DNA of 64,000 nucleotides from an uncultured virus (IMG/VR IMGVR_UViG_3300035670_000180) (Duplodnaviria > Heunggongvirae > Uroviricota > Caudoviricetes), in IMG/VR virus record IMGVR_UViG_3300035670_000180; one strand, given 5' to 3'. A program made the position numbers and the translations under genes. The notes beneath the pieces are model-generated. The model saw only the letters and a program-made list of their open reading frames with translations, made no database searches and had not been told where the DNA came from. Below are positions 5,876-52,159 of the stretch, piece after piece; the stretch's first letter is position 1, and each line of letters starts with the position of its first letter.

Positions 5876-6760
5876 ATGTCTTTCGAGATCGTGCTGAGCG
5901 CCACGCTCCGTGAGGAGAGCGGCGAAGTTCAGCCTGTAGGCGGCCCGTTCCGGCGTGGCCGCTTTTCTTTTTCGGATCACCCCGATGATCCTGGCGGCCG
6001 GACGATGATGGGCATCATCCAGCGCGAGTACGACGACTTCCGCGCGGCACGTAAGCAGCCCGCGATGGATGTCGCGATGATCACCGACCATGAAGTCCTC
6101 GACATCTATCGGGACAGCTATTGGACCCCGGTCCAAGGCGATGCGCTCCCGCCCGGCATCGACTTGGCTGTCTTTGATTTCGGCGTCAATTCCGGGCCGG
6201 TGACGGCTATCAAGAAGCTGCAATCCGCGCTGGGCGTCGTGCCCGATGGGCATATCGGCGTGCGCACGAAACGCGCCCTGGCCGAATGCGACCCCGTCTC
6301 GGTCGTCACGTCTCTGATGCAACTGCGGCGCGACTATTGCCGGTCGCTCCGCAACTATCCCAGCTTCAAGAATGGCTGGGAGAAGCGGTGGGATCGGATC
6401 GAGAAGATCGCGTTGCGCATGGCTACGGTGCCGGACGCGCCGCAGCCCATGCCGGTGACGGAGCGCGTTATCGATCCGCCTGTGGCGGTGAAGGCCATCG
6501 ACGCCCCGCCATCGCGCATGTCGCAGTCCGATACGGGCAACGCGGCCCTGATCGGCGGCGGATCGGGACTGGCGAGCATCGGCACGTCCGTGGCGAAGGC
6601 TGCGGGCGAGCTTATGTCTGCGGGCAAGCCGGTGTCGTTCCCGGTGCTCATCGTCGAGGCGGCGTCGAAGGAACTCTTCTGGCTCGGCATCGCGGCGTTC
6701 GCGTCGTGCGTTTTCATCTGGTCCGAGCGCCGCCGCAAGCTAAGGATGCACCACCATTGA
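5876..6760 (+). CDS. Endolysin, glycoside hydrolase family 108 with peptidoglycan-binding domain and hydrophobic C-terminus
   Basis: DHPDDPGGRTMMGI, YW, FDFGVNSGP, DGHIGVRT and FKNGWEKR motifs typical of GH108; upstream of spanins. Confidence 0.85.
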   Translation: MSFEIVLSATLREESGEVQPVGGPFRRGRFSFSDHPDDPGGRTMMGIIQREYDDFRAARKQPAMDVAMITDHEVLDIYRDSYWTPVQGDALPPGIDLAVFDFGVNSGPVTAIKKLQSALGVVPDGHIGVRTKRALAECDPVSVVTSLMQLRRDYCRSLRNYPSFKNGWEKRWDRIEKIALRMATVPDAPQPMPVTERVIDPPVAVKAIDAPPSRMSQSDTGNAALIGGGSGLASIGTSVAKAAGELMSAGKPVSFPVLIVEAASKELFWLGIAAFASCVFIWSERRRKLRMHHH

Positions 6761-23625: not shown

Positions 23626-24531
23626 ATGTCTGCACTGAACATCAACGGGCAGCGGTTCGTGCTGGCTAACAGCACCTCGCCGCTCAACAACGAAATCTAC
23701 TGGCCGCTGGACGTGATGGCGCGGTGCATGCAGTCCATCGCCCTGCTCGAGATCGTAGCCAGCGCGACGGCGCCTGCGGATACGTCCGTCATCTGGTACC
23801 GGCCGGATGGGTCTTCGGCTGCGAACGGGCGCTACTACTATCACGACGGCGCCAATTGGATCACGCCGCTCACGCCGCGCGGTGTGTTCTACCACCTGCT
23901 GAGCAAGAGCGGGTACGTCCCGCGTCTCACCGATGGCGATTACGGCGACATTACCGTATCTGGCGGCGGCACCGTCATGAGCATCGATCCCAATGCGGTG
24001 GCGGCTCCCGAGCTTGCTGCAACGGGCGTCACTGCCGGGTCGTACACCGCAGCCAACATCACGGTCGATGCTGATGGCCGGATCACGGCAGCAGCGAATG
24101 GCGCCACGGGTAGTGGGCTTGCCAATGGCGACTACGGCGATGTGATCGTCGGGGGCGGCGGCACAACGATGACGCTTGATACGACCGGTGTCACGGCGGG
24201 GGCGTACACCTCGCCGAACATCACGGTCGATGCCAAGGGGCGCGTCACGGCTATCGCAAGCGGGACAGCAAGCGGACTTACTGTCCCTGATGTCACCGGG
24301 ACCGGCGTCGGCGCGCTCATCCTGACAACTTACAATCCAGACCCATATAACGACGGAAACTATGTCCCATTTCCACTGGGTCGCGGGGCGTCTCTGACAT
24401 GCACAGCACCCATAGAAGTGTCATCCGGAGGTCGGGTTATATACAATAACGCCTTCGTTGTGGGCGGCGTCTATACCATTCTTGGCAGCGGCGCAGATGG
24501 CCTTTCTTTCCTATTCGTCCGCACCGCTTGA
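23626..24531 (+). CDS. Fibre-like protein with duplicated GDYGD...TGVTAG.YT..NITVDA.GR.TA module
   Basis: Internal ~52-aa duplication; G/T-rich. Confidence 0.65.
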   Translation: MSALNINGQRFVLANSTSPLNNEIYWPLDVMARCMQSIALLEIVASATAPADTSVIWYRPDGSSAANGRYYYHDGANWITPLTPRGVFYHLLSKSGYVPRLTDGDYGDITVSGGGTVMSIDPNAVAAPELAATGVTAGSYTAANITVDADGRITAAANGATGSGLANGDYGDVIVGGGGTTMTLDTTGVTAGAYTSPNITVDAKGRVTAIASGTASGLTVPDVTGTGVGALILTTYNPDPYNDGNYVPFPLGRGASLTCTAPIEVSSGGRVIYNNAFVVGGVYTILGSGADGLSFLFVRTA

Positions 24532-24553
24532 TCACTCGCCAAAGGGGGACACT

Positions 24554-25342
24554 ATGGCGATCCACGAAGACGCTATCGACCTGATGCAATACTTCACCGG
24601 GTGCGCGCATGTCGCCTATGCGTGCCCGTCTCACATCTCGCACGGCGGCCAATGGCCATACATGACCATCGGCTACGGCCACTCCGGGCCGAACGTCAAT
24701 CCGGGGATGCGGATCACATCGGGCGAGGCACGCGACCTGCTGGCGCGCGACCTCGCGAATGTGGAGGCATACGTCACATCGGCAATCAAGGTCCCGCTGG
24801 AGCCGCATCAATTCGGCGCGCTCTGCTCGCTGGTGATGCACATCAAGCCGACGCTGTTCGCAACGTCGCAGGTGCTGGCGATCATCAACACGGGGCGGTT
24901 CGGCGCCCTGAACGCCGAAGCTGCTCGCGCCGGGAACCTCGATAGCCTGGATGGCCTTGCCCGTGCCTGGGCGCAGTATCGCGAGATCGCATCGGGCGAC
25001 AACGCGCAGGCTCTGGCGCCGCTCGTTGCCCGCCGCGCCTGCGAACTTGAGCTGTTCTTCTACGGCCGCTGGACGCCGCCGCACGCGATGATGATGCCCC
25101 AGCTGCTTGTCGATCCCGAGCCGCCCGTCGAGATGTTCGCGGACGGCATGCGCAGCTCCGACGTCGAGGCGCTGCACGATGCTCTGGCGGCAGCCGGGTT
25201 CCCGACGACCTGCCAGGACGCCTACACCTGGGTGACGGCCCAGGCGGTGCGCGCGTTTCAGGAGAAGCACGGGCTCGAGCCCGATGGCGTTTACGGGCCG
25301 CAGACGGCGCGCAAACTGAATGAAGTCCTCAACTGGAACTGA
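24554..25342 (+). CDS. GH24 lysozyme-like protein with C-terminal peptidoglycan-binding domain (catalytic Glu apparently absent)
   Basis: TIGYGH, QFGALCS, LVARRACE motifs; TAQAVRAFQEKHGLEPDGVYGPQT PG-binding motif; FTG where FEG is expected. Confidence 0.75.
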   Translation: MAIHEDAIDLMQYFTGCAHVAYACPSHISHGGQWPYMTIGYGHSGPNVNPGMRITSGEARDLLARDLANVEAYVTSAIKVPLEPHQFGALCSLVMHIKPTLFATSQVLAIINTGRFGALNAEAARAGNLDSLDGLARAWAQYREIASGDNAQALAPLVARRACELELFFYGRWTPPHAMMMPQLLVDPEPPVEMFADGMRSSDVEALHDALAAAGFPTTCQDAYTWVTAQAVRAFQEKHGLEPDGVYGPQTARKLNEVLNWN

Positions 25343-25525
25343 AGGAGAGCATGATGCGCACGATCTCGCATGCCGCTTGTTTCCAGCATCTAAGCCCACG
25401 AGATCGCCCACCGACGCCGCAACGCCTCGCTCCGCCACGAGCGTGAGCGGGCAAACAAATAGCCGCCCAGGACGAACCTGGGCGGCCACATATCCTCGCG
25501 GGCTTGGCGGCTGCTGCGAGGTTCC

Positions 25526-25574
25526 GGCCCCGGCCCGGCGCGTCATCCCCCTCGCGCCGGGCCGGGGCCTTTTT
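25526..25574. terminator. Long hairpin terminator where late (+) and early (-) transcription converge
   Basis: 17-bp perfect stem GGCCCCGGCCCGGCGCG / CGCGCCGGGCCGGGGCC followed by TTTTT. Confidence 0.7.
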
Positions 25575-25920
25575 GCGTTTCGGCTGCGGCTTCGGATCGC
25601 TTGGCCGTCGTCCATGCACGCCGGTAGATAGCCAATAGGGCCTCGCGTTCAAGCTCCAGGCACGCGCGGCTGATGGACATATGGGCCATCAGGTTCGCGG
25701 CGATGTCGAGGTGCCCGAATGCGGCGATCACGTCCCGGCGCTCGTACATCAGGCGCTCCGGTATGCCTGCCGCGTTGAAGATCGCGCCGATGGCGTCGTA
25801 GCGATCCCGTTTGCGAGCCTTGGGCGGTGGCCCATCGCGGAAGATCAAGGCCGCCGCCTGGAGCAGCGCGGCGACCTCGCCGGTATCAGGAGACGACGAC
25901 GTAATAGTGCGGGATTGCAT
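25543..25920 (-). CDS. Hypothetical protein
   Basis: Last ORF of the leftward operon, RBS-like GGA upstream, plausible composition. Confidence 0.5.
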   Translation of the reverse strand: MQSRTITSSSPDTGEVAALLQAAALIFRDGPPPKARKRDRYDAIGAIFNAAGIPERLMYERRDVIAAFGHLDIAANLMAHMSISRACLELEREALLAIYRRAWTTAKRSEAAAETQKGPGPARGG

Positions 25921-26122
25921 TGGGGCCGCCCGATCCTGTTCCAGCCAGATATGCCCGCCCCTTGATCTTCTCCTTGCCGATCACGACGGCCATCTCGTCG
26001 TTGAAGATCGACACGCCATCGCCCGCGTACATGACGTAGGTCCAGGCGATGGAGTACATCCCGCCCTGGCTTTCAAAGAGGGCGAGCCGTTTCGTGTGCG
26101 GGATATCCGCGAAGTCGCGCAT
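25886..26122 (-). CDS. Hypothetical protein
   Basis: RBS TAAGGA before ATG. Confidence 0.55.
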   Translation of the reverse strand: MRDFADIPHTKRLALFESQGGMYSIAWTYVMYAGDGVSIFNDEMAVVIGKEKIKGRAYLAGTGSGGPNAIPHYYVVVS

Positions 26123-26132
26123 CGGCGTATCC

Positions 26133-26262
26133 TTAAAGGTCAGCCGGGACGACGTAGACCCGCGTCAGCCTCGCGTTGCTCTTCGGCCCCCGCATCGGGA
26201 CCAGCTTGTCTGTCGGCAGCAGATACGGCCGGGTCCCGTCCTTCGGGTAGAGCAGCTGGGCA
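26133..26262 (-). pseudogene. Orphan 3' end of the gene at 27590..27925 (displaced allele; also the TnpB guide source)
   Basis: Translates AQLLYPKDGTRPYLLPTDKLVPMRGPKSNARLTRVYVVPADL*, 32/42 aa identical to the C-terminus of 27590..27925. Confidence 0.85.
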
Positions 26263-26450
26263 CTGACATGCTCTCCGGCCTTCAGGCCGGAGGTTCCCAA
26301 TTTGGCGCTCATTGCGAGCCCTCCGTGGGTTGCTTCCTCTTGCCGACGCGCTTAATCCGCGTTCGCTTGGGAGGCTCTACGGCCAAAGTCCTGGCCTGGA
26401 GAATGTTCTTCGCTGCGTTGATGTCCGCGTGGGCACAATGTCCGCACGCA
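26243..26450 (-). ncRNA. TnpB omegaRNA/reRNA (scaffold overlapping tnpB 3' end; guide from 26262 downward, TGCCCAGCTGCTCTACCCGA); 5' limit approximate
   Basis: Established TnpB architecture applied to the visible right-end hairpin and TCAG end. Confidence 0.6.
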
Positions 26451-27588
26451 ATGCAACGGAACTCGGACTGGCTGCAACGGCTCGCAGCGTCGACCACGCC
26501 GCACTCCGAGCAGGTCTGGCTGGTGTATGCAGCGGACACCTCTTCGAGGCGTCCACCACGTTCCGCCAGCTTCCAGACGAGCATGGTCCTAAACATGGAC
26601 CAGCCCTGGTCGAGGATAGACTTGTTGAGCCCGGCCTTGGCGCGCACGTTGCGGCCCGGCTCCTCAATCGTCCCCTTCGCGCTCGCAGACATGCCCCGCA
26701 CGTTCAACTTCTCGACTTTCACCACGCCTTGGCTCTCGGCGATGATCGTCGACTGCTTGTGCAGATAGTCTTTCCGAGCGTTCGCCGCGTGCGAATGCAG
26801 GCGGCTGATCTTGGCCTTCAGCTTGCGCCAATTGGCCGAGAATTTCGTCTTGCGAGCGAGGCGACGTTGTAGCTTCGCCAGCTTTGCCTCGATGCGCCGA
26901 AACGAGTTGAGCGGCTCAATCTTGCTGCCGTCCGACAGAGCTGCGAACACGGCCACGCCGCGGTCGATGCCGATGGCGGGACCATTCTTAGGTGCCGGAT
27001 CAGGGATCTCGCGCTGCCATTGGATGGCTGCATACCAGTGCCCGGCCTTGCGCCGGATCGTGACGTTGCGCAGCTCGCCGCCGAGCGGTCGCCAGTCCCG
27101 ACACCTGACCCATCCCAGCTTCGGAACCTTGATTGCGCCCATCCGCTTCGATAGGCGCTTGAAGCCAAGGTAGCTTGGGTCTGGCAGACGGAACGTGTCG
27201 TCGCGCTCCTTCTGTCGCGGCCTGGGGTAGCCACCCAGCTTCGCAAAGAAGCGCTGATATGCTGTGTCGAGATCGCGGAGCGCCTGCTGCAACGCATGCA
27301 CCGGAACGGCGGCCAGCCAATCGAACGCTGCGCGAGCCTCTGTGATCTCTCGTGCCTGCTGGACATAGGACAGCTTCGCGTGTCGATGCCAATCGCGTCG
27401 CTGCTCCAGGCCGCAGTTGTAAACGAAGCGACACGCGCCAGCCCACTGAGCAAACGCGATGGCCTGCTCCGGTGTCGGCTCAAGCCGATAAAGGTTGGCG
27501 CGTCGGACTAGCATTTGCTGTGTGGCTCCATCTGGTGGCCGACGCTTGCCCCGCCCTGAAGGGCAGGGTTTGCGCGCGGGCAACATTG
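26263..27588 (-). mobile_element. Non-autonomous IS200/IS605-family element (tnpB only)
   Basis: Left end CAA... with subterminal hairpin CCCTGCCCTTCAGGGCGGGG (~27549-27568); right-end hairpin CTCCGGCCTGAAGGCCGGAG ending ...GCATGTCAG; no tnpA. Confidence 0.85.
26309..27514 (-). CDS. tnpB: RNA-guided endonuclease TnpB
   Basis: YRLEPTPEQ...CRFVYN N-terminus; RuvC-I IGIDRG, RuvC-II VEKL, zinc finger CSECG/CIACG, RuvC-III ADINAAKNI; all three catalytic acids present. Confidence 0.95.
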   Translation of the reverse strand: MLVRRANLYRLEPTPEQAIAFAQWAGACRFVYNCGLEQRRDWHRHAKLSYVQQAREITEARAAFDWLAAVPVHALQQALRDLDTAYQRFFAKLGGYPRPRQKERDDTFRLPDPSYLGFKRLSKRMGAIKVPKLGWVRCRDWRPLGGELRNVTIRRKAGHWYAAIQWQREIPDPAPKNGPAIGIDRGVAVFAALSDGSKIEPLNSFRRIEAKLAKLQRRLARKTKFSANWRKLKAKISRLHSHAANARKDYLHKQSTIIAESQGVVKVEKLNVRGMSASAKGTIEEPGRNVRAKAGLNKSILDQGWSMFRTMLVWKLAERGGRLEEVSAAYTSQTCSECGVVDAASRCSQSEFRCIACGHCAHADINAAKNILQARTLAVEPPKRTRIKRVGKRKQPTEGSQ

Positions 27589-27589
27589 A

Positions 27590-27925
27590 TCACAGATCCC
27601 TCGGAACGACGTAGACCCGCGTCACGCGTGCGTTGGACTTCGGTCCCCGCATGGGGACAAACCGGTCCGTCGCGATCAGGTATGGCCGCGTCCCGTCGCG
27701 GGGGTGCTGCAATTGATTGATCAACGCGCCCCATGCGTTGTGATGGGGCGGATTGATGCCAAGCTCGGCGCAACGCAGGCGGATGTCCTCGCCGGTCACC
27801 TCCTGGCCGCGCATCGTGCGCACGACCAGCCGGGCGAGCGTCTGCCAGTCCACGCCCGCGCTATCGAGCACCTTGCGCATCGCGTCTCGCTTGGCGCCGA
27901 GCGCGAGTTTCAGTTGCTCGCTCAT
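27590..27925 (-). CDS. Hypothetical phage protein (TnpB target gene, with replacement 3' end)
   Basis: ATGA-coupled to upstream gene; TGEDIR...PPHHNAWGAL motif; contains TTGAT at 27724-27720. Confidence 0.75.
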   Translation of the reverse strand: MSEQLKLALGAKRDAMRKVLDSAGVDWQTLARLVVRTMRGQEVTGEDIRLRCAELGINPPHHNAWGALINQLQHPRDGTRPYLIATDRFVPMRGPKSNARVTRVYVVPRDL

Positions 27926-28344
27926 GCCGCATCCACCAGATCGTCGCTGTCATTGATCACTATCTTGGCGTCAGGAAATGCTTCCATGAGCATCTTGGCC
28001 GCCTCGCCGCCCAGGGCCGCAGCGAACGCTTGCGGGTTCTTCTCGGCGGCATCCAGCACGTCCAGCGCCAGCTTGACGCGATGCAGGCCGCCTCGCGCAT
28101 CCAGACGCTCGCGCAGCTTCAGCAGCGTCTCCACAGACGTGTCCGCCTTGGCGATGGCGTTGTAGTCCTTGTAGGCGCGGAAGAGCGGCCCAAACTGCGC
28201 AACGGCTCGGTCCGCTGACATCTGCCCGCTATCGATCCGGGCCGTGTAGACTTTCACGCGCATGTTCATCTCACGCGACAGCTCGGCGAGCACTTCCTGC
28301 GTCGTGATCGGCTGAGTGTCGATCTCCCTGGGTCTCCAAGACAT
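27922..28344 (-). CDS. Hypothetical protein
   Basis: ELSREMNMRVKVY...SGQMS motif common in small phage proteins; operon packing. Confidence 0.6.
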   Translation of the reverse strand: MSWRPREIDTQPITTQEVLAELSREMNMRVKVYTARIDSGQMSADRAVAQFGPLFRAYKDYNAIAKADTSVETLLKLRERLDARGGLHRVKLALDVLDAAEKNPQAFAAALGGEAAKMLMEAFPDAKIVINDSDDLVDAA

Positions 28345-28349
28345 GCTGC

Positions 28350-28643
28350 TCACCCCAGGTTGGCTGCGACGGCAGCGTTGGCACGCATGCGATAGGCCAT
28401 CAGCTCGGCAATCTGGCTGATGATGCGGTGCTCGCCCGCGACGGCGCGCATGGCGCTGGCCCGCCTGTCGTCGTCCTCCGGGAGGAGGCTGGCGTAGTGG
28501 CCGATGTACCAAGCGTTCAGGGCGGCGCGTCCGGCCTCGTCCGGCAGACTGCCCAGGAGATCGGGCGGCGAGACGGTGACGAGCGGGTGATCGTCCGGGT
28601 CAAGGAGACTGAGCAGGCTTGCTCGGCGATAGGCGTCGTGCAT
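28350..28643 (-). CDS. Hypothetical protein
   Basis: RBS GGGGGA before ATG; first gene downstream of two operator-like palindromes. Confidence 0.55.
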   Translation of the reverse strand: MHDAYRRASLLSLLDPDDHPLVTVSPPDLLGSLPDEAGRAALNAWYIGHYASLLPEDDDRRASAMRAVAGEHRIISQIAELMAYRMRANAAVAANLG

Positions 28644-28681
28644 TGGCGGTTCCCCCGTGGCTGCAATGGTCGGGGGTTAGA

Positions 28682-28730
28682 TTGCACTATTTGCAATTTA
28701 GGGGCAACGCCAGAGTCGCAACATCTGCAA
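28682..28730. promoter_or_regulatory. Two operator-like palindromes (TTGCACTATTTGCAA, TCGCAACATCTGCAA)
   Basis: Match the TTGCR-N5-TGCAA motif repeated in many intergenic regions. Confidence 0.65.
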
Positions 28731-28839
28731 TCACTGCTACACCAATCGAACCACCCTGGCAGCCGGTGTTTGCAGGCGGTGTGGTGGTCCGAAAAAGCAA
28801 AAGGGGCTAGCTGGATGGCAGCTAACCCCTTGATTTTGT

Positions 28840-28884
28840 TGGTAGCGGGAGGCGGACTTGAACCGCCGACCTAAGGATTATGAG
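28840..28884 (-). other. attP core: 3' half of a tRNA-Met(CAT) gene
   Basis: Minus strand CTCATAATCCTTAGGTCGGCGGTTCAAGTCCGCCTCCCGCTACCA (anticodon loop, T arm, CCA); no 5' half; ~110 bp from the integrase stop. Confidence 0.85.
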
Positions 28885-28994
28885 GAATTAAATCGCCCGC
28901 CGCCGTCTCTGTAATCCGTTGTCTTTCAATAATTTATTTCGTCGGGCACGCAGAGATCGTGCCTCGCGGGTGTGGAATCGCCACACCCCATGCG

Positions 28995-30188
28995 TCAGCG
29001 ACGTCCACGGAGCGGCACAACGTCCGCCTTCGGACGAGCATCGATTCGCGCATGACGCTCGAGCGCCTCGAAGAGGTCATCGAGCTTGAGGAACGCATAG
29101 TGCCGTTCCGTCACTGCGACCGAGCTGTGACCCAACCAATCCCTCACCTGCACCATGCTCATCTCAAGGTCTTGCAGCAGACGGCACCCGCACGTCCGGC
29201 GAAGATCGTGCCACGTCACGTCGGGCAGCCCGGCCCGCTTGCACGCCGATGCGAACGCGGCGTCGAAATTGCCGCGCGGGCGTCCGTCCTCGTGGGCAAA
29301 CACCAGACCACCACCGTGGGCTACGGGCATCTCGTCGAGTGTGGAAATAGCACATGGCTGCAACGGGACGATCCGGGCCTTCCCGCCCTTGCCTTCCCGA
29401 ACTGCAATTCGGGGCCGTGAGCCCCTTTGCACATCCTGCCACGTCAGGGCCATCATCTCGGATATGCGCAGCCCCGTGGCGATGGCGAATTGGATCGCTG
29501 CCGGGAGCATCCGCCGCTCGAACTCGCTCGCTTGACTGCGGCGCCATGCGGCAGCGATCAGCCGGGCCTCCTCCTCGTGCGTCAGATATCGCGTCCGCGC
29601 CTGGGCTCGCCCCAGCGCCTGCTTGCGGGACTTGAGGTAGCCCGCGACGATGTTCTCGTCGGCCCATCGATGGGAGACGCAGAACGTCAGGAGCGAGGAC
29701 AGGCAGGCGAAGTCGCGCCGGATCGTCGTATCGCTGACGGGCGCCCAAGCGACACGGGGGCCGAGCTTCTTGCCGTTGTCCTTGGCGGCGTACACCGCGT
29801 TGCCCTTGCCGTCCGACTTGAACCTGCCGGGTGCGCGGCGGCGCACGGCCTCGAAGGAGGCGAGATCGCTTGTCGTGATCGATGCGACCCGCTTGGCGCC
29901 GAAGTGCTTGCGGATGTGGGCGATGCTCGTCTCGTATCGCGCGATGGTGTTGGGCCGCAGCGCCGACCATGTCTCCTGCTGCCACCTTATGATCGCGTCG
30001 GAGATCAGGATGCGATACACCTCGCCGAACTCGCTGGCTTGCAGCTCGCGCTCCCATTCGGCGAGGCGCTGGTAGGCGACACGGGCATCCCCCGTGCCGA
30101 GGCTCTTGGTCTTCTCTTTGCGGACGCCATTCACTCTATATATGTGCCGCGCGTGATAGGTGCCGCCACGCTTTACAATAGTTGCCAA
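28995..30188 (-). CDS. int: Tyrosine recombinase / phage integrase
   Basis: TGLRISE (R), HDLRR (HxxR), LGHS, TERHY catalytic motifs; RBS AGGAGG before TTG. Confidence 0.95.
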   Translation of the reverse strand: MATIVKRGGTYHARHIYRVNGVRKEKTKSLGTGDARVAYQRLAEWERELQASEFGEVYRILISDAIIRWQQETWSALRPNTIARYETSIAHIRKHFGAKRVASITTSDLASFEAVRRRAPGRFKSDGKGNAVYAAKDNGKKLGPRVAWAPVSDTTIRRDFACLSSLLTFCVSHRWADENIVAGYLKSRKQALGRAQARTRYLTHEEEARLIAAAWRRSQASEFERRMLPAAIQFAIATGLRISEMMALTWQDVQRGSRPRIAVREGKGGKARIVPLQPCAISTLDEMPVAHGGGLVFAHEDGRPRGNFDAAFASACKRAGLPDVTWHDLRRTCGCRLLQDLEMSMVQVRDWLGHSSVAVTERHYAFLKLDDLFEALERHARIDARPKADVVPLRGRR

Positions 30189-49520: not shown

Positions 49521-50075
49521 ATGACGGACGGAATTGACACGGACGAGCCCAAACGGAAGCGCAAGCGTGTGAAATGGGCGGACTACCGGCCATCCAATCT
49601 GGACCAAGCAGCCATCGACTGGACCCGGCAGAACATCAAGCGGATGGGACTCAAGAACAAGCACGTCGCTCATCACCTCGGTGTGTCGGAGCAGCGTTTC
49701 AGCAACAAGATGTGCGGCAAGAACCGTCTGAACATCATCGAGCTGCGCAAGTTGGCCGCGTTCTTCGGCGTGCCTCCGCCCAATTTTGTCAAAGAGCCGC
49801 AGACCGCCGATGTGTCGAGAGTCAGAATTATTGGGCGCATCGTCGAGCAGCCCGCACGTGAGGAGACAGCCATGACGCCAAACGAGATGAAGAGGGCCAG
49901 GGCAGCGCTGGAACTCACCCTGGACCAGATGGCCGAGATGCTCGGCTACGAGGGCACCCAGAGGCGCCAGCAGCAGTATGACCTGGAGACGGGGAAGAGG
50001 CCGATCAGAGGCTGCCAGCGGCGGCTCATTGAGGCGTATTTGGCCGGATGGCGCCCTGAGGACTGGCCCAGATAG
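49521..50075 (+). CDS. Double-HTH protein with internal in-frame start at 49872
   Basis: Two XRE-like HTH motifs; internal GAGGAG-N6-ATG. Confidence 0.7.
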   Translation: MTDGIDTDEPKRKRKRVKWADYRPSNLDQAAIDWTRQNIKRMGLKNKHVAHHLGVSEQRFSNKMCGKNRLNIIELRKLAAFFGVPPPNFVKEPQTADVSRVRIIGRIVEQPAREETAMTPNEMKRARAALELTLDQMAEMLGYEGTQRRQQQYDLETGKRPIRGCQRRLIEAYLAGWRPEDWPR

Positions 50076-50394
50076 CAGCAAAGGCCGAGATCAAGACGCG
50101 GAAACAGGGCGGGCAGCGGTGTCCGCCCTTTTTCTTTGCGGATTGTGCAAAGCAAGCATCTAGTATAAAACGCCCACATCGCGCAATAAAGTTGCGCGCA
50201 GGCCCGGGGAAGATAGAAAACCTTGCCATCGGCTCGAGATCAAACGATCCCAAAGTATTTCTACGCGAATCAGATAGACATCGCGTGTTCTTCGGAGCAC
50301 TCGAGCAGTCGTGCGCGCGTCATCTAGCAGTAAAACGACAGTATTTGCGGATACTTGCTTTGCCATTTTTGTTACTTGTTTCAAACACATAGCG

Positions 50395-50500
50395 TTGACA
50401 ACGGTACGTTGCTTCGGCATGTTTTGGTCACATTCGAGAATTGTCTGCGGATACTTGCAGACGAGAGCGGCGGTCCCAAGGCGGGCCGCCGTTTTGCTTT
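50395..50500 (+). promoter_or_regulatory. Candidate late promoter (TTGACA-N17-CATGTT) with downstream terminator hairpin
   Basis: Perfect -35 at 50395-50400; hairpin GCGGCGGTCC...GGGCCGCCGT-TTTGCTTT at ~50467-50500. Confidence 0.45.
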
Positions 50501-50775
50501 GGAGGCAAAGCCGTAACTGATCCCCGGCCTGAAGGCCGGGGCTTTCCAGGAGGGAGACTGACTGGGAGGCCATAGTTACCAGACCCCGGCGCAAGCCGGA
50601 GCCGCACTTAGAGAGGTTAAAGACCCACCCCGCCGTGCTTCCTCAGCGGCGGGCTCTGGAAATTCCGAAAGCAGACACGCCAGGTCAGGCACGAAACGGT
50701 TCGGAATATAGCCGCTCTTTTGCAAGGTCGAGGGGAACTTTACTGGGGCCGCAAGGCCAAACTCTAAAGACAGAA
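50493..50775 (+). ncRNA. IscB omegaRNA (HEARO-like); guide = 5' flank ending 50512; limits approximate
   Basis: GTAACT...AGTTACCAGAC pairing, TGCTTCCTCAGC...GCTCTGG, GGTCGAGGGG motifs typical of HEARO RNAs directly upstream of iscB. Confidence 0.8.
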
Positions 50776-52159
50776 AGGAGGTCGCAATGTCGGTGTTTGT
50801 TCTCGGGTCGGATAAGCGGCCTCTGATGCCGTGCTCTGAAAAGCGGGCTCGGCTTTTGTTGACGAGAAAGAGGGCGGCGGTCTTCCGGCGCTATCCGTTT
50901 ACGATCATCCTCAAGGATCGGACGCAGGACGACTGCGAATTGCAGCCGGTTGAAATCAAGCTCGATCCGGGCAGCAAGGTCACTGGCATCGCCGTTGTTC
51001 GCGGCGGCGCCGGCAACAAGCCAGACACGGTGCTTTGGCTCGCCGAGTTGGCCCATCGCGGTGCGGCCATACGCGACAAGCTGAAGGCCCGCGCAGCATT
51101 TCGTCGTCGTCGGCGCAGCAAGAACCTGCGCTATCGTCCGGCACGGTTCGATAACAGGACAAAGCCCAAGGGCTGGCTCGCGCCGTCGCTGCGGCACCGC
51201 GTCGAAACGACGATGTCTTGGGTTGAGCGCTTGCGGCGCTGGTGCCCCGTCACTGGCATCGCGCAAGAGCTTGTGCGTTTCGACATGCAAGCTATGGAAA
51301 ACCCGGAGATCTCCGGCGTCGAGTATCAGCGTGGGACGCTCGCCGGAACAGAGGTCCGGGAATACCTGCTCGCAAAGTGGGGTCGCGCCTGCGCGTACTG
51401 CGGCATCGCCGACGTGCCCCTCAACATAGATCACATTGAGCCTCGCGCTCGTGGCGGATCGAACCGCGTGTCCAACCTCTGCGTTGCATGTGTCTCGTGC
51501 AATCAGAAGAAGGGCGCGCAACCGGTCGAAGTATTTCTCGCCAAGCAGCCGAAGGTGTTGGCCCGCATCAAGATCCAGGCCAAGGCGCCGCTTCGGGACG
51601 CAGCAGCCGTCAACTCGACTCGCTGGGCGTTGTTCCAGGAGATCAAGGCAACAGGACTCGCGGTGCGCTGTGGGTCTGGAGGCCGCACAAAGTGGAACCG
51701 CTCGCGGCTTGGCATCCCCAAGACGCACGCCCTGGATGCAGCCTGCGTCGGCGAGACGGATGCGCTCGCAGGATGGCAGGCCCCAGCACTTGGAATCAAA
51801 TGCACCGGGCGCGGCGCGTACCAACGCACACGGCTAAATAAGTACGGCTTCCCGCGCGGGCATCTGATGCGGGGGAAGTCAGCGTTCGGTTTTCAGACCG
51901 GTGACATGGTGGTTGCCGATGTTGCGCGCGGAAAGAACTCCGGTCGCCATGTCGGTCGCGTTGCGATCCGCGCGAGCGGTTCGTTCAACATACAGACGCC
52001 GACGGGCGTCGTGCAGAATGTTTCTTGGAAGCACTGCACCACTATCGCTCGTGGCGATGGCTACAGTTTCTCGTAGTCTCGGCGGGTAAAGCCCGCGCTC
52101 GATGCGAGAACTCCTATCCCGCCCCGGCCTGAAGGCCGGGGTAACCCGGAGAAAAGTTG
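50513..52159 (+). mobile_element. Non-autonomous IS200/IS605-family IscB element
   Basis: CCCCGGCCTGAAGGCCGGGG hairpin at both ends (50522-50541, 52122-52141); removing the element rejoins GGAGGCAAAGCC|ATG. Confidence 0.85.
50787..52076 (+). CDS. iscB: RNA-guided endonuclease IscB
   Basis: PLMP N-terminus, RuvC-I LDPGSK, Arg-rich bridge helix, ELVRFD, HNH CAYC...DHI...GGSN...N...C..CN, RuvC-III HALDAAC. Confidence 0.95.
   Translation: MSVFVLGSDKRPLMPCSEKRARLLLTRKRAAVFRRYPFTIILKDRTQDDCELQPVEIKLDPGSKVTGIAVVRGGAGNKPDTVLWLAELAHRGAAIRDKLKARAAFRRRRRSKNLRYRPARFDNRTKPKGWLAPSLRHRVETTMSWVERLRRWCPVTGIAQELVRFDMQAMENPEISGVEYQRGTLAGTEVREYLLAKWGRACAYCGIADVPLNIDHIEPRARGGSNRVSNLCVACVSCNQKKGAQPVEVFLAKQPKVLARIKIQAKAPLRDAAAVNSTRWALFQEIKATGLAVRCGSGGRTKWNRSRLGIPKTHALDAACVGETDALAGWQAPALGIKCTGRGAYQRTRLNKYGFPRGHLMRGKSAFGFQTGDMVVADVARGKNSGRHVGRVAIRASGSFNIQTPTGVVQNVSWKHCTTIARGDGYSFS

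What the first reader, a model, noticed from the sequence alone, without database searches (positions are those of the whole stretch)
26133..27925. TnpB insertion with a recoded replacement 3' end: intact gene, guide aimed at the ancestral allele
Seen: the gene 27590..27925 is intact, but a second diverged copy of its last 130 nt lies directly after the element's right end (26262-26133; 32/42 aa identical). Joining TTGAT (27724-27720) to 26262 rebuilds an in-frame allele (L-I-A-Q-L-L-Y-P vs L-I-N-Q-L-Q-H-P). The resident sequence after TTGAT differs from the guide at 11 of 20 positions including the first four. The replacement segment is bracketed by an 8-bp direct repeat TGATCAAT (27723-27716, 27592-27585). 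Established: TTGAT is a known TnpB TAM, and the guide derives from the right flank. Inference: the disrupted gene was rescued by a cleavage-resistant 3' end, leaving an intact TnpB that would cut related phages carrying the old allele, i.e. a natural cleave-and-rescue/homing drive or inter-phage weapon.
Basis: partly seen in the sequence, partly recalled or inferred. Interest (0 to 1): 0.85.

Follow-up and report, generated by a model that had tools for sequence, protein, structure and literature searches.

The report
TnpB insertion with repaired phage gene
A small RNA-guided nuclease element (TnpB) sits inside a phage gene that was then patched with a diverged spare end, so the gene is whole again while the nuclease's guide still points at the original, unpatched version of the gene, which is found in another metagenome.

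Summary
A TnpB-only IS200/IS605 element lies on the minus strand at 27588-26263. Its ends are fixed by an 83%-identical copy elsewhere (L047) and by more distant relatives. It is flanked upstream by intact gene X (27925-27590) and downstream by a second copy of X's last 130 nt (26262-26133; 91/130 nt, ungapped).

The predicted empty allele exists. In a run of another study (X5), one 205-nt contig joins 27720 directly to 26262, with 3 mismatches in 205 nt.

X is therefore a chimera: an ancestral 5' part up to TTGAT, then a 131-bp patch from a diverged allele. A matching donor-type allele is present in the window's own sample. The patch sits exactly between the TAM and the element's left end, bracketed by TGATCAAT. 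It is not part of the canonical element.

TnpB looks intact: it keeps the D-E-D and zinc-finger residues, differs from L047 mostly at third codon positions, and has a conserved omegaRNA. Its 20-nt guide matches only the ancestral allele; the resident allele has 11/20 mismatches.

Structural history: well supported. Homing or exclusion ("cleave and rescue"): plausible but untested. Caveats: 7 of 7 relatives use TGAC, not TGAT, and this is a single instance.

The parts
27590..27925 (-). Gene X, intact 111-aa chimeric ORF. It belongs to a phage-specific family of unknown function. The model is winged-helix-like, which is a lead only.
   Evidence: ORF. No Pfam or PHROG family. Homologues: 30 at E<=1e-3, only P0002 above 65% identity. 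Atlas neighbours are viral. AF2 model pLDDT 86.3. Best Foldseek E 0.07; PadR-like chains at TM 0.47-0.50.
27720..27925 (-). 5' part of X, of the ancestral lineage, ending in TTGAT
   Evidence: The X5 contig covers 27720-27886 with 2 differences in 167 nt and then continues at 26262.
27720..27724 (-). TTGAT: the original insertion site and TAM of the ancestral allele
   Evidence: Joint at 27720 in X5. TTGAT is the ISDra2 target and TAM (PMC13565253, passages).
27589..27719 (-). 131-bp patch: a replacement 3' end of X (130 nt including the TGA stop) plus one T. It comes from a diverged X allele. Because of the TGATCAAT repeat, its borders can be shifted by up to 4 nt (the CAAT shared with the left end).
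   Evidence: Identity to the old copy 91/130; to L003 113/130. Absent from the related element L047. A donor-like allele in run X1 shares 27723-27694 exactly.
27585..27592 (-). Second copy of TGATCAAT = X's stop TGA, plus T, plus the first 4 nt (CAAT) of the left end. The first copy is at 27723-27716.
   Evidence: Left-end start.
26263..27588 (-). TnpB-only IS200/IS605-family element, 1326 nt. Left-end hairpin at 27568-27549, right-end hairpin at 26292-26273.
   Evidence: Similarity to L047 begins right after TGAT/TGAC and ends at GTCAG, plus 3 further shared nt. Relatives. No Y1 transposase in record G001.
26309..27514 (-). tnpB, 401 aa
   Evidence: Pfam HTH_OrfB_IS605, OrfB_IS605 and Cas12f1-like_TNB. 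ISDra2 TnpB 8h1j E 1.2e-43 over residues 3-376, with D, E, D and CxxC..CxxC aligned. 334/402 aa identical to L047; nt differences by codon position 44/42/156.
26263..26490 (-). omegaRNA scaffold region. It overlaps the tnpB 3' end and the right end.
   Evidence: 6-sequence alignment: 57 predicted pairs, 14 with compensatory changes; terminal hairpin and 3' tail conserved. Sub-threshold HgcC match at 26398-26250, 28.2 bits, E 9e-4. The HgcC-tnpB link is from PMC4615843 (passages).
26243..26262 (-). Guide template: the first 20 nt after the right end
   Evidence: Unique in the window at up to 3 mismatches. 11/20 mismatches to the resident allele.
26133..26262 (-). Orphaned ancestral 3' end of X, 130 nt, in frame with its own TAA stop. 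It is also the tail of a 59-aa ORF (26312-26133) whose ATG overlaps the tnpB stop.

Best explanation
Shown:
- A TnpB-only IS200/IS605 element (27588-26263, minus strand) lies between an intact gene X and a diverged copy of X's last 130 nt.
- The uninterrupted ancestral allele, in which TTGAT is followed directly by the bases from 26262 downward, exists in nature.
- The resident X is a chimera of an ancestral 5' part and a 131-bp foreign 3' end.

Inferred history:
1. The element inserted 3' of TTGAT in codon 69 of ancestral X, cutting off the last 42 residues. In the model these form the beta-hairpin 'wing'.
2. The gene was repaired by a templated patch copied from a co-circulating diverged allele of the P0002/L003 type. 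The patch entered exactly at the TAM/left-end border, using the 8-nt microhomology TGATCAAT (TGAT plus the left end's first CAAT). It left again at the donor's stop TGA, which overlaps TGAT.
3. The result is an intact X, then the element, then the orphaned old 3' end.

Inferred mechanism today: the omegaRNA takes its guide from the orphaned end. TnpB, if active on a TGAT TAM, can therefore cut only genomes that carry the ancestral allele. The resident allele mismatches at 11/20 positions, including the TAM-proximal four. The copy behind the right end has no TAM.

In a mixed infection, or from a prophage, a cut competitor would either be lost or be repaired from this genome. Repair would copy patch plus element together, which is homing without loss of X. 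The phage encodes RecT, an exonuclease, NinB and a RuvC-like resolvase.
For: Duplication and in-frame join.

Element ends: L047 alignment; 7 of 7 related left-end junctions and 6 related right ends.

Empty allele: X5 contig, 205 nt, depth 5.5. The joint 26262/27720 skips 1457 nt with 0 ambiguous letters. The two pieces match 37/38 and 165/167.

Chimerism:
- The patch is 113/130 identical to L003, the old copy 91/130.
- A 385-nt contig in run X1 has 15 differences in 27724-27808. The 10 that are listed all equal the L003 state, by my reading.
- That contig then matches 27723-27694 exactly and ends there, which is where the window-type contigs of that run break.

TnpB and omegaRNA are intact and conserved.

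The guide has no other target in the window.

There are 11 clusters of TnpB at 80% identity or more in metagenomes, so the element family is alive.

Phage recombination genes.

TnpB-driven spread without TnpA ('non-restorative homing') is described for plasmids and proposed for co-infecting phages (PMC13565253, passages).
Against: - It is a single instance. Of 30 related TnpB loci, only the window's own shows a coding flank duplication. L047 shows none.
- The empty allele rests on one short, low-depth contig.
- A full-length ancestral allele was not found in the 5.8-billion protein set, in IMG/VR or in the metagenome scan.
- All 7 related left-end junctions have TGAC, so cleavage at a TGAT TAM is unproven.
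- Whether X matters to the phage is unknown.
- The donor's sequence after its stop codon is unknown, so the second junction has only 3 nt or more of microhomology that can be shown.
- The difference between 5' and 3' identity to L003 (162/206 against 113/130) is not significant on its own (p = 0.06).
Confidence: 0.6

Rival explanations
1. Same history, but a neutral scar. The element is stranded with no TnpA, and TnpB and its guide give the phage no advantage now. The patch was selected only because it restored X.
For: There is no Y1 transposase in G001. It is a single instance. The clade's TAM is TGAC in 7 of 7 relatives. Nothing here bears on expression.
Against: TnpB keeps its catalytic and zinc residues. 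Its divergence from L047 is mostly at third codon positions, 156 of 242 differences. The omegaRNA end is nearly identical to L047's. The target allele and near-identical tnpB pieces (340/342 and 144/151) occur in one and the same run, X5.
Confidence: 0.25
2. Reverse order. A 131-bp partial duplication of X's 3' end arose first, by a TGAT microhomology. The element then inserted by transposition at the second TGAT, at X's stop codon.
For: The left end is flanked by TGAT either way. The final structure would be identical.
Against: This order needs two independent events at the same 4 nt. It gives no selective reason for the duplication. It leaves the CAAT shared by the patch start and the left-end start as pure chance (1 in 256). 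No element-free duplicated form appeared among the contigs laid in the four runs (table 5 lists only the 26262/27720 joint).
Confidence: 0.08
3. The patch is cargo of a longer transposable unit whose true left end is at 27719. TnpA would then move it together with tnpB.
For: TTGAT lies directly before 27719.
Against: In L047 and in six other junctions, similarity begins only at the position matching 27588. The patch is ordinary X coding sequence, 113/130 identical to L003. The left-end hairpin lies 20 nt from 27588, as in relatives.
Confidence: 0.03
4. Assembly artefact: a chimeric contig or a collapsed repeat.
For: The window and G001 are the same sequence, so they do not support each other.
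Against: Contigs in X1, X3 and X4 bridge both junctions and the patch with 0 mismatches. The two copies are only 70% identical, so a 31-mer graph cannot join them by error.
Confidence: 0.02

Closest known systems
IS200/IS605-family TnpB with omegaRNA (ISDra2 type), in its TnpB-only 'IS1341-type' form
   Same: Domain set, catalytic residues, subterminal hairpins, insertion 3' of a TGAT-type motif with no target duplication, and a guide taken from the right flank.
   Different: There is no TnpA in the phage record. The clade's usual flank is TGAC. The interrupted gene has been made whole again by a foreign 3' end placed between the TAM and the left end.
Intron-less homing and localized marker exclusion by free-standing homing endonucleases of T-even phages (SegF, SegG, Mob). 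Taken from PMC13565253 passages and from recall.
   Same: A nuclease gene sits beside a conserved phage gene. Self is protected by sequence differences in that gene, the relative's allele is the target, and flanking sequence is co-converted.
   Different: Recognition here is by a guide RNA plus a TAM. The resistant allele was created by a patch at the insertion site. Activity is not shown.
IStrons (a group I intron fused to IS200/IS605)
   Same: They solve the same problem, which is keeping the interrupted gene functional. They insert after TTGAT-type motifs and end in TCAG (PMC13565253, passages).
   Different: There is no intron here: no group I intron match at E<=1 in 25500-29000 or at gathering score in the whole window. 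The gene is restored at the DNA level by a spare 3' end.
Prophage e14 (and phage 21, from recall) integrated in icd, with a replacement 3' end and an orphan icdC fragment (PMC13626634, passages)
   Same: An intact gene runs into the element on a substitute 3' end. The old 3' end is left as a pseudogene fragment at the far side.
   Different: In e14 the substitute end is part of the element's attachment site and moves with it by site-specific recombination. Here it is not part of the element (L047 lacks it) and looks like a one-off recombinational repair.
Synthetic cleave-and-rescue (ClvR) and toxin-antidote CRISPR drives (from recall)
   Same: An RNA-guided nuclease aimed at the wild-type allele is tightly linked to a cleavage-resistant functional copy.
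   Different: This case is natural and sits in a phage. Whether the target gene is essential is unknown, and the likely outcome is homing by recombination rather than killing of non-carriers.

Membership tests
IS200/IS605 TnpB (OMEGA) element | TnpB with HTH, OrfB_IS605 (RuvC) and zinc-ribbon TNB domains | tested here: met
   Pfam 56.5, 84.9 and 77.2 bits, all above their cut-offs.
IS200/IS605 TnpB (OMEGA) element | RuvC D-E-D triad and CxxC..CxxC retained | tested here: met
   Alignment to ISDra2 TnpB 8h1j, E 1.2e-43. D (GIDRG), E (VEKL), D (HADINAA) and both Cys pairs align. Which residues are catalytic is recalled, not taken from a call.
IS200/IS605 TnpB (OMEGA) element | Subterminal hairpins at both ends; insertion 3' of a short motif with no target-site duplication | tested here: met
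   Hairpins at 27568-27549 and 26292-26273. The empty site in X5 joins 27720 to 26262 with no duplicated or shared letters.
IS200/IS605 TnpB (OMEGA) element | Structured omegaRNA overlapping the tnpB 3' end and ending at the right end, followed by the guide | tested here: met
   57 predicted pairs, 14 with compensatory changes, in 6 sequences. Conservation stops at GTCAG. The transcript itself was not observed.
IS200/IS605 TnpB (OMEGA) element | Y1 (HUH) TnpA transposase in the element | tested here: not met
   No PF01797 match in G001, while the search found it in 6 of 14 control genomes. Relatives L024, L007 and L008 carry a divergent upstream gene where TnpA sits in full elements; I did not scan it. 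This copy is therefore a TnpB-only derivative.
IS200/IS605 TnpB (OMEGA) element | RNA-guided, TAM-dependent DNA cleavage | not testable with these tools
   This needs an interference or in vitro assay. TAM uncertainty: TGAC in 7 of 7 relatives against TGAT here.
IStron | Group I intron between the left junction and tnpB | tested here: not met
   No group I intron match. The 131 nt are X coding sequence.
Homing cassette / cleave-and-rescue (functional class) | The target allele exists in related genomes and matches TAM plus guide | tested here: met
   X5 contig. TTGAT is unchanged. The single mismatch of the 38-nt piece is not listed in table 3, so I infer that it lies at the contig end, outside 26243-26262.
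Homing cassette / cleave-and-rescue (functional class) | A linked resident allele that is functional and resistant | tested here: inconclusive
   The ORF is intact and mismatches the guide at 11/20, with the first 4 all different. Neither function nor resistance was assayed.
Homing cassette / cleave-and-rescue (functional class) | The target gene is needed by the phage | not tested
   X is conserved in about 30 phage-borne homologues, but its role is unknown.
e14/icd-type integration with a built-in substitute 3' end | The substitute 3' end is part of the mobile element | tested here: not met
   The related element L047 starts at the position matching 27588 and has no such segment.

The most novel reading that the evidence does not exclude
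Patch plus TnpB element is a self-contained, naturally evolved RNA-guided homing cassette. It would be a natural counterpart of cleave-and-rescue. From a prophage or in mixed infection, TnpB cuts relatives that carry the ancestral X allele. Recombinational repair then copies the resistant 3' end and the nuclease together. The cassette would spread through the phage population without costing the gene, and would exclude competitors that fail to convert. The second OMEGA system on the same phage (IscB with HEARO RNA at about 50513-52076) would fit a phage that uses such nucleases in competition between phages.
Probability: 0.25. Interest if true: 0.85.

Novelty: new variant of a known kind. Interest (0 to 1): 0.64.

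Why it matters
TnpB is known to keep its own transposon in place by cutting the emptied donor site. Spread between co-infecting phages ('non-restorative homing') is so far a proposal (PMC13565253).

This locus supplies all the pieces needed to test that proposal in one natural system:
- a nuclease with a defined guide;
- the ancestral target allele, seen in the wild;
- a naturally resistant, functional replacement allele linked to the nuclease;
- a candidate donor allele.

It also shows a third way for such an element to stop harming the gene it interrupts, beside intron splicing (IStrons) and intergenic insertion. That way is a DNA-level patch with a diverged gene end. If the functional reading holds, it would be a natural precedent for toxin-antidote gene drives.

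Tried and rejected
- The window's own assembly is not held. G001 is the same sequence, so it gives no independent support.
- INPHARED phages: no match by megablast or by tblastn with X.
- A full-length ancestral allele was not found among 30 X homologues, in IMG/VR (2 loci, the window's own and L003), or in the metagenome scan (407 pattern matches, 3 confirmed, none an ancestral-type X).
- Recurrence of the architecture: of 30 related TnpB loci, only the window's own shows it. L007's hit is a second left-end copy. L028's 28-31-nt hits were not followed up. L047 shows none. L043 was checked by eye and by blast and shows none.
- Idea that the ATG overlapping the tnpB stop systematically reads the downstream gene remnant in frame: it is in frame with the best coding frame in 2 of 5 elements (window and L043). 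That is as chance gives, so I dropped it.
- IStron idea: no intron.
- X function: no Pfam or PHROG family. No Foldseek match at E<=0.001. Winged-helix likeness is only a lead.
- 5' against 3' identity to L003 as a test of chimerism: p = 0.06, not decisive alone.
- The guide region being more diverged than the rest (11/20 against 28/110, p = 0.015) is not evidence of selection for resistance, because the independent L003 allele gives the same numbers.
- No RNA holder is listed for this stretch, so nothing can be said on expression.
- No sigma-70-like promoter was found in 25400-29000.
- Literature: only one general review holds both 'TnpB' and 'cleave and rescue'. No paper holds 'TnpB', 'partial duplication' and 'insertion site' together. 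Of the three listed for TnpB + phage + 'competing phages', none describes this, judged from titles and abstract starts only.
Full report
**1. What is in the sequence**

On the minus strand the order is as follows:
- gene X, 27925-27590, 111 aa;
- 4 nt later, an ATG that opens a frame running into tnpB. The conserved tnpB start is at 27514 and the stop at 26309;
- a structured right end;
- from 26262 down to 26133, a second copy of X's last 130 nt.

The two copies align without gaps:
- 91/130 nt are identical;
- 34/44 codons are identical, counting the straddling Ile codon and the stop;
- differences by codon position are 12/7/20, so both evolved as coding sequence.

Joining 27720 to 26262 gives an in-frame 111-aa product. 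The similarity is far beyond chance: blastn E 1e-19 and tblastx E 3.5e-21 (row L042); the repeat finder family D1, spacing 1457. TGATCAAT occurs at 27723-27716 and 27592-27585, as reported, and also at 27959-27952. These are all three minus-strand copies in the 64-kb window.

**2. The nuclease**

The 401-aa protein carries HTH_OrfB_IS605, OrfB_IS605 and Cas12f1-like_TNB domains. It aligns over residues 3-376 to ISDra2 TnpB (8h1j, E 1.2e-43), with the acidic triad and both Cys pairs in place. Which residues are catalytic is from recall.

The metagenome scan found a close relative in an unrelated context, L047. Compared with it:
- 334/402 aa and 964/1206 nt are identical;
- 156 of the 242 nt differences fall at third codon positions;
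- the last ~140 nt of the element are almost identical.

A six-sequence alignment of the last 228 nt gives 57 predicted pairs, 14 of them with compensatory changes, and a conserved terminal hairpin and 3' tail. Rfam gives a sub-threshold HgcC match here (28.2 bits, E 9e-4). HgcC has been tied to tnpB 3'-end transcripts (PMC4615843, passages).

No Y1 transposase is present in the 47-kb virus record that equals window 6170-53379. Eleven protein clusters at 80% identity or more exist in metagenomes.

**3. Where the element ends**

Right end. Six related right ends (L006, L007, L008, L009, L024, L043) share the sequence up to GTCAG and diverge directly after it. L047 also shares it up to GTCAG. 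In the window this is 26263. L047 shares three more bases with the window beyond that point. Because the ungapped 130-nt alignment to X begins at 26262, I keep 26263 as the end.

Left end. Similarity to L047 starts right after TGAC in L047 and right after TGAT in the window, at 27588. All 7 related left-end junctions examined carry TGAC: L047, L024, L007 twice, L008, L009 and L043. The left-end hairpin (27568-27549) lies 20 nt inside, as in relatives (17-21 nt).

The TGAT beside the left end is X's stop codon plus one T.

**4. The ancestral allele exists**

I laid Logan contigs of four runs on 25500-28500. In run X5, a marine metagenome from a study other than the window's, one 205-nt contig of depth 5.5 behaves as follows:
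- it covers 27886-27720 with 2 differences in 167 nt;
- it then continues directly at 26262-26225 with 1 difference in 38 nt;
- the joint skips 1457 nt and has no letters that fit on both sides.

The one difference in the short piece is not listed among internal differences. I infer that it lies at the contig end, outside the 20-nt guide match.

The two copies of X's 3' end are only 70% alike, so a 31-mer graph cannot create this joint by error.

X5 also holds tnpB pieces: 26557-26898 with 2 differences, and 26936-27086 with 7.

Caveat: this is one short contig of low depth. No full-length ancestral allele turned up elsewhere.

**5. X is a chimera and a donor-type allele is at hand**

- The only nucleotide-level similarity between the window and the related virus contig G002/L003 is X itself: 27909-27590, 83%.
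- L003 has no tnpB after X.
- The patch is 113/130 identical to L003. The old copy is 91/130 identical both to L003 and to the patch. The 5' part is 162/206 identical to L003.
- The 5' part is 165/167 identical to the X5 ancestral allele.

In run X1 (possibly the source sample), a 385-nt contig of depth 6.3 carries a different X 5' part. It has 15 differences in 27724-27808. Reading the ten that are listed, all ten equal the L003 state, including C in place of the first T of TTGAT.

That contig then matches 27723-27694 exactly and ends there. At the same place the window-type contigs of that run break: one 5551-nt contig ends at 27723 and one 3326-nt contig starts at 27694.

So a P0002/L003-type allele whose sequence after TGAT is identical to the start of the patch co-occurs with the window's phage. 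The jump from about 82% to 100% identity falls at the TAM. This is an inference from contig ends. What follows that allele's stop codon is not known.

**6. How the patch got there (inferred)**

Before repair, the junction read TTGAT followed by the left end, which begins CAAT. Together these form TGATCAAT.

The donor allele has the same eight bases at the homologous place, as codons for Leu-Ile-Asn.

A template switch or recombination at this 8-nt microhomology would proceed as follows:
1. Enter the donor at the microhomology.
2. Copy 131 nt, up to the donor's stop TGA.
3. Return to the recipient's TGAT.

This yields exactly the observed structure, including the direct repeat.

Under the alternative order (duplication first, insertion second) the shared CAAT is unexplained and two events must hit the same 4 nt. 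The insertion point is also the site that TnpA cleaves. Whether that played a part cannot be said.

The phage encodes RecT, an exonuclease, NinB and a RuvC-like resolvase.

**7. What it would do**

- The guide template (26262-26243) occurs once in the window at up to 3 mismatches. There it is preceded by the right end, not by a TAM.
- The resident allele after TTGAT mismatches at 7/12, 9/16 and 11/20 positions.
- An active TnpB would therefore spare its own genome and cut the ancestral allele.
- Repair from this genome would copy patch and element together.

This works like intron-less homing and marker exclusion by free-standing endonucleases of T-even phages, and like TnpB "non-restorative homing" (PMC13565253, passages). 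It adds a linked resistant gene end, as in synthetic cleave-and-rescue (recalled).

The resistance is not a special recoding. The independent L003 allele shows the same 11/20 and 28/110 mismatches.

Points against the functional reading:
- the clade's flank is TGAC in 7 of 7 relatives;
- it is a single instance: of 30 related TnpB loci only the window's own shows the duplication, and L047 shows none;
- there are no expression data;
- X's role is unknown.

**8. Gene X**

X has no Pfam or PHROG family. There are 30 homologues of 104-133 aa. Atlas neighbours are viral.

The AF2 model has pLDDT 86.3: four helices and a C-terminal beta-hairpin. The best Foldseek rows are PadR-, MarR- and RTP-type winged-helix proteins, at E 0.07-0.5 and TM up to 0.50. 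This is a lead only.

The insertion point removes part of helix 63-73 and both strands.

**9. Comparison and verdict**

The element is a TnpB-only member of the IS200/IS605 family; the absence of TnpA was tested. It is not an IStron. It is not an e14/icd-type element with a built-in substitute gene end (PMC13626634, passages), although the final anatomy looks the same: intact gene, element, orphan 3' fragment.

I found no description of such a patched TnpB insertion in searches. The listings were read as titles and abstract starts. Passages were read in PMC13565253 and in 10.64898/2026.02.14.705889.

I rate it a new variant of a known kind:
- the history is well supported, about 0.8 for insertion followed by patch;
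- the drive or weapon function is open, about 0.25-0.3.

Noticed in passing
window 50513-52076 (+): A second OMEGA system on the same phage. A 429-aa protein has RRXRR (249 bits) and HNH domains, which is the IscB type. It is directly preceded by a full-length HEARO RNA match at 50513-50743: 73.9 bits against a gathering score of 83, E 2e-14. PHROGs calls the protein only an HNH endonuclease. The guide and the element ends were not defined.
   Followed up: partly
window 27952-27959 (-): A third copy of TGATCAAT lies in the 3' end of the upstream ORF. With one base on each side it matches the LE junction over 10 nt. All three minus-strand copies in the 64-kb window lie within 375 nt. This is unexplained and may be chance.
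   Followed up: no
window 26133-26312 (-): A 59-aa ORF starts at an ATG that overlaps the tnpB stop (ATGA). It reads through the right end into the orphaned X 3' end, in frame. The same in-frame arrangement occurs in L043 but not clearly in L047, L024 or L007, so it is 2 of 5, as chance gives.
   Followed up: yes
L043 1470-2760: A 56%-identical TnpB in another IMG/VR contig starts 25 nt after a TGAC that overlaps the stop codon of the upstream gene. It has no left-end hairpin. The downstream ORF lacks its own start and is in frame with an ATG inside the right end.
   Followed up: partly
L007 2776-2900: A second left end, preceded by TGAC, lies 58 nt after the right end. This indicates tandem or nested elements in that genome.
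   Followed up: no
window 50130-50500: An AT-rich stretch with no long ORF lies between a repressor-like gene (49521-50075) and the HEARO RNA. It stands out in a genome of 63% G+C.
   Followed up: no
window 5876-6760 and 24458-25342 (+): There are two endolysin-like genes in one window. An integrase (28995-30188) sits in the middle of the predicted virus region, followed by a strong terminator-like hairpin at 28831-28801. No tRNA gene was found.
   Followed up: no
window 27765-27799, runs X1 and X3: Further short contigs carry diverged X-like sequence, for example X3 record 12 with 5 differences in 35 nt. Several X alleles therefore coexist in these samples.
   Followed up: no
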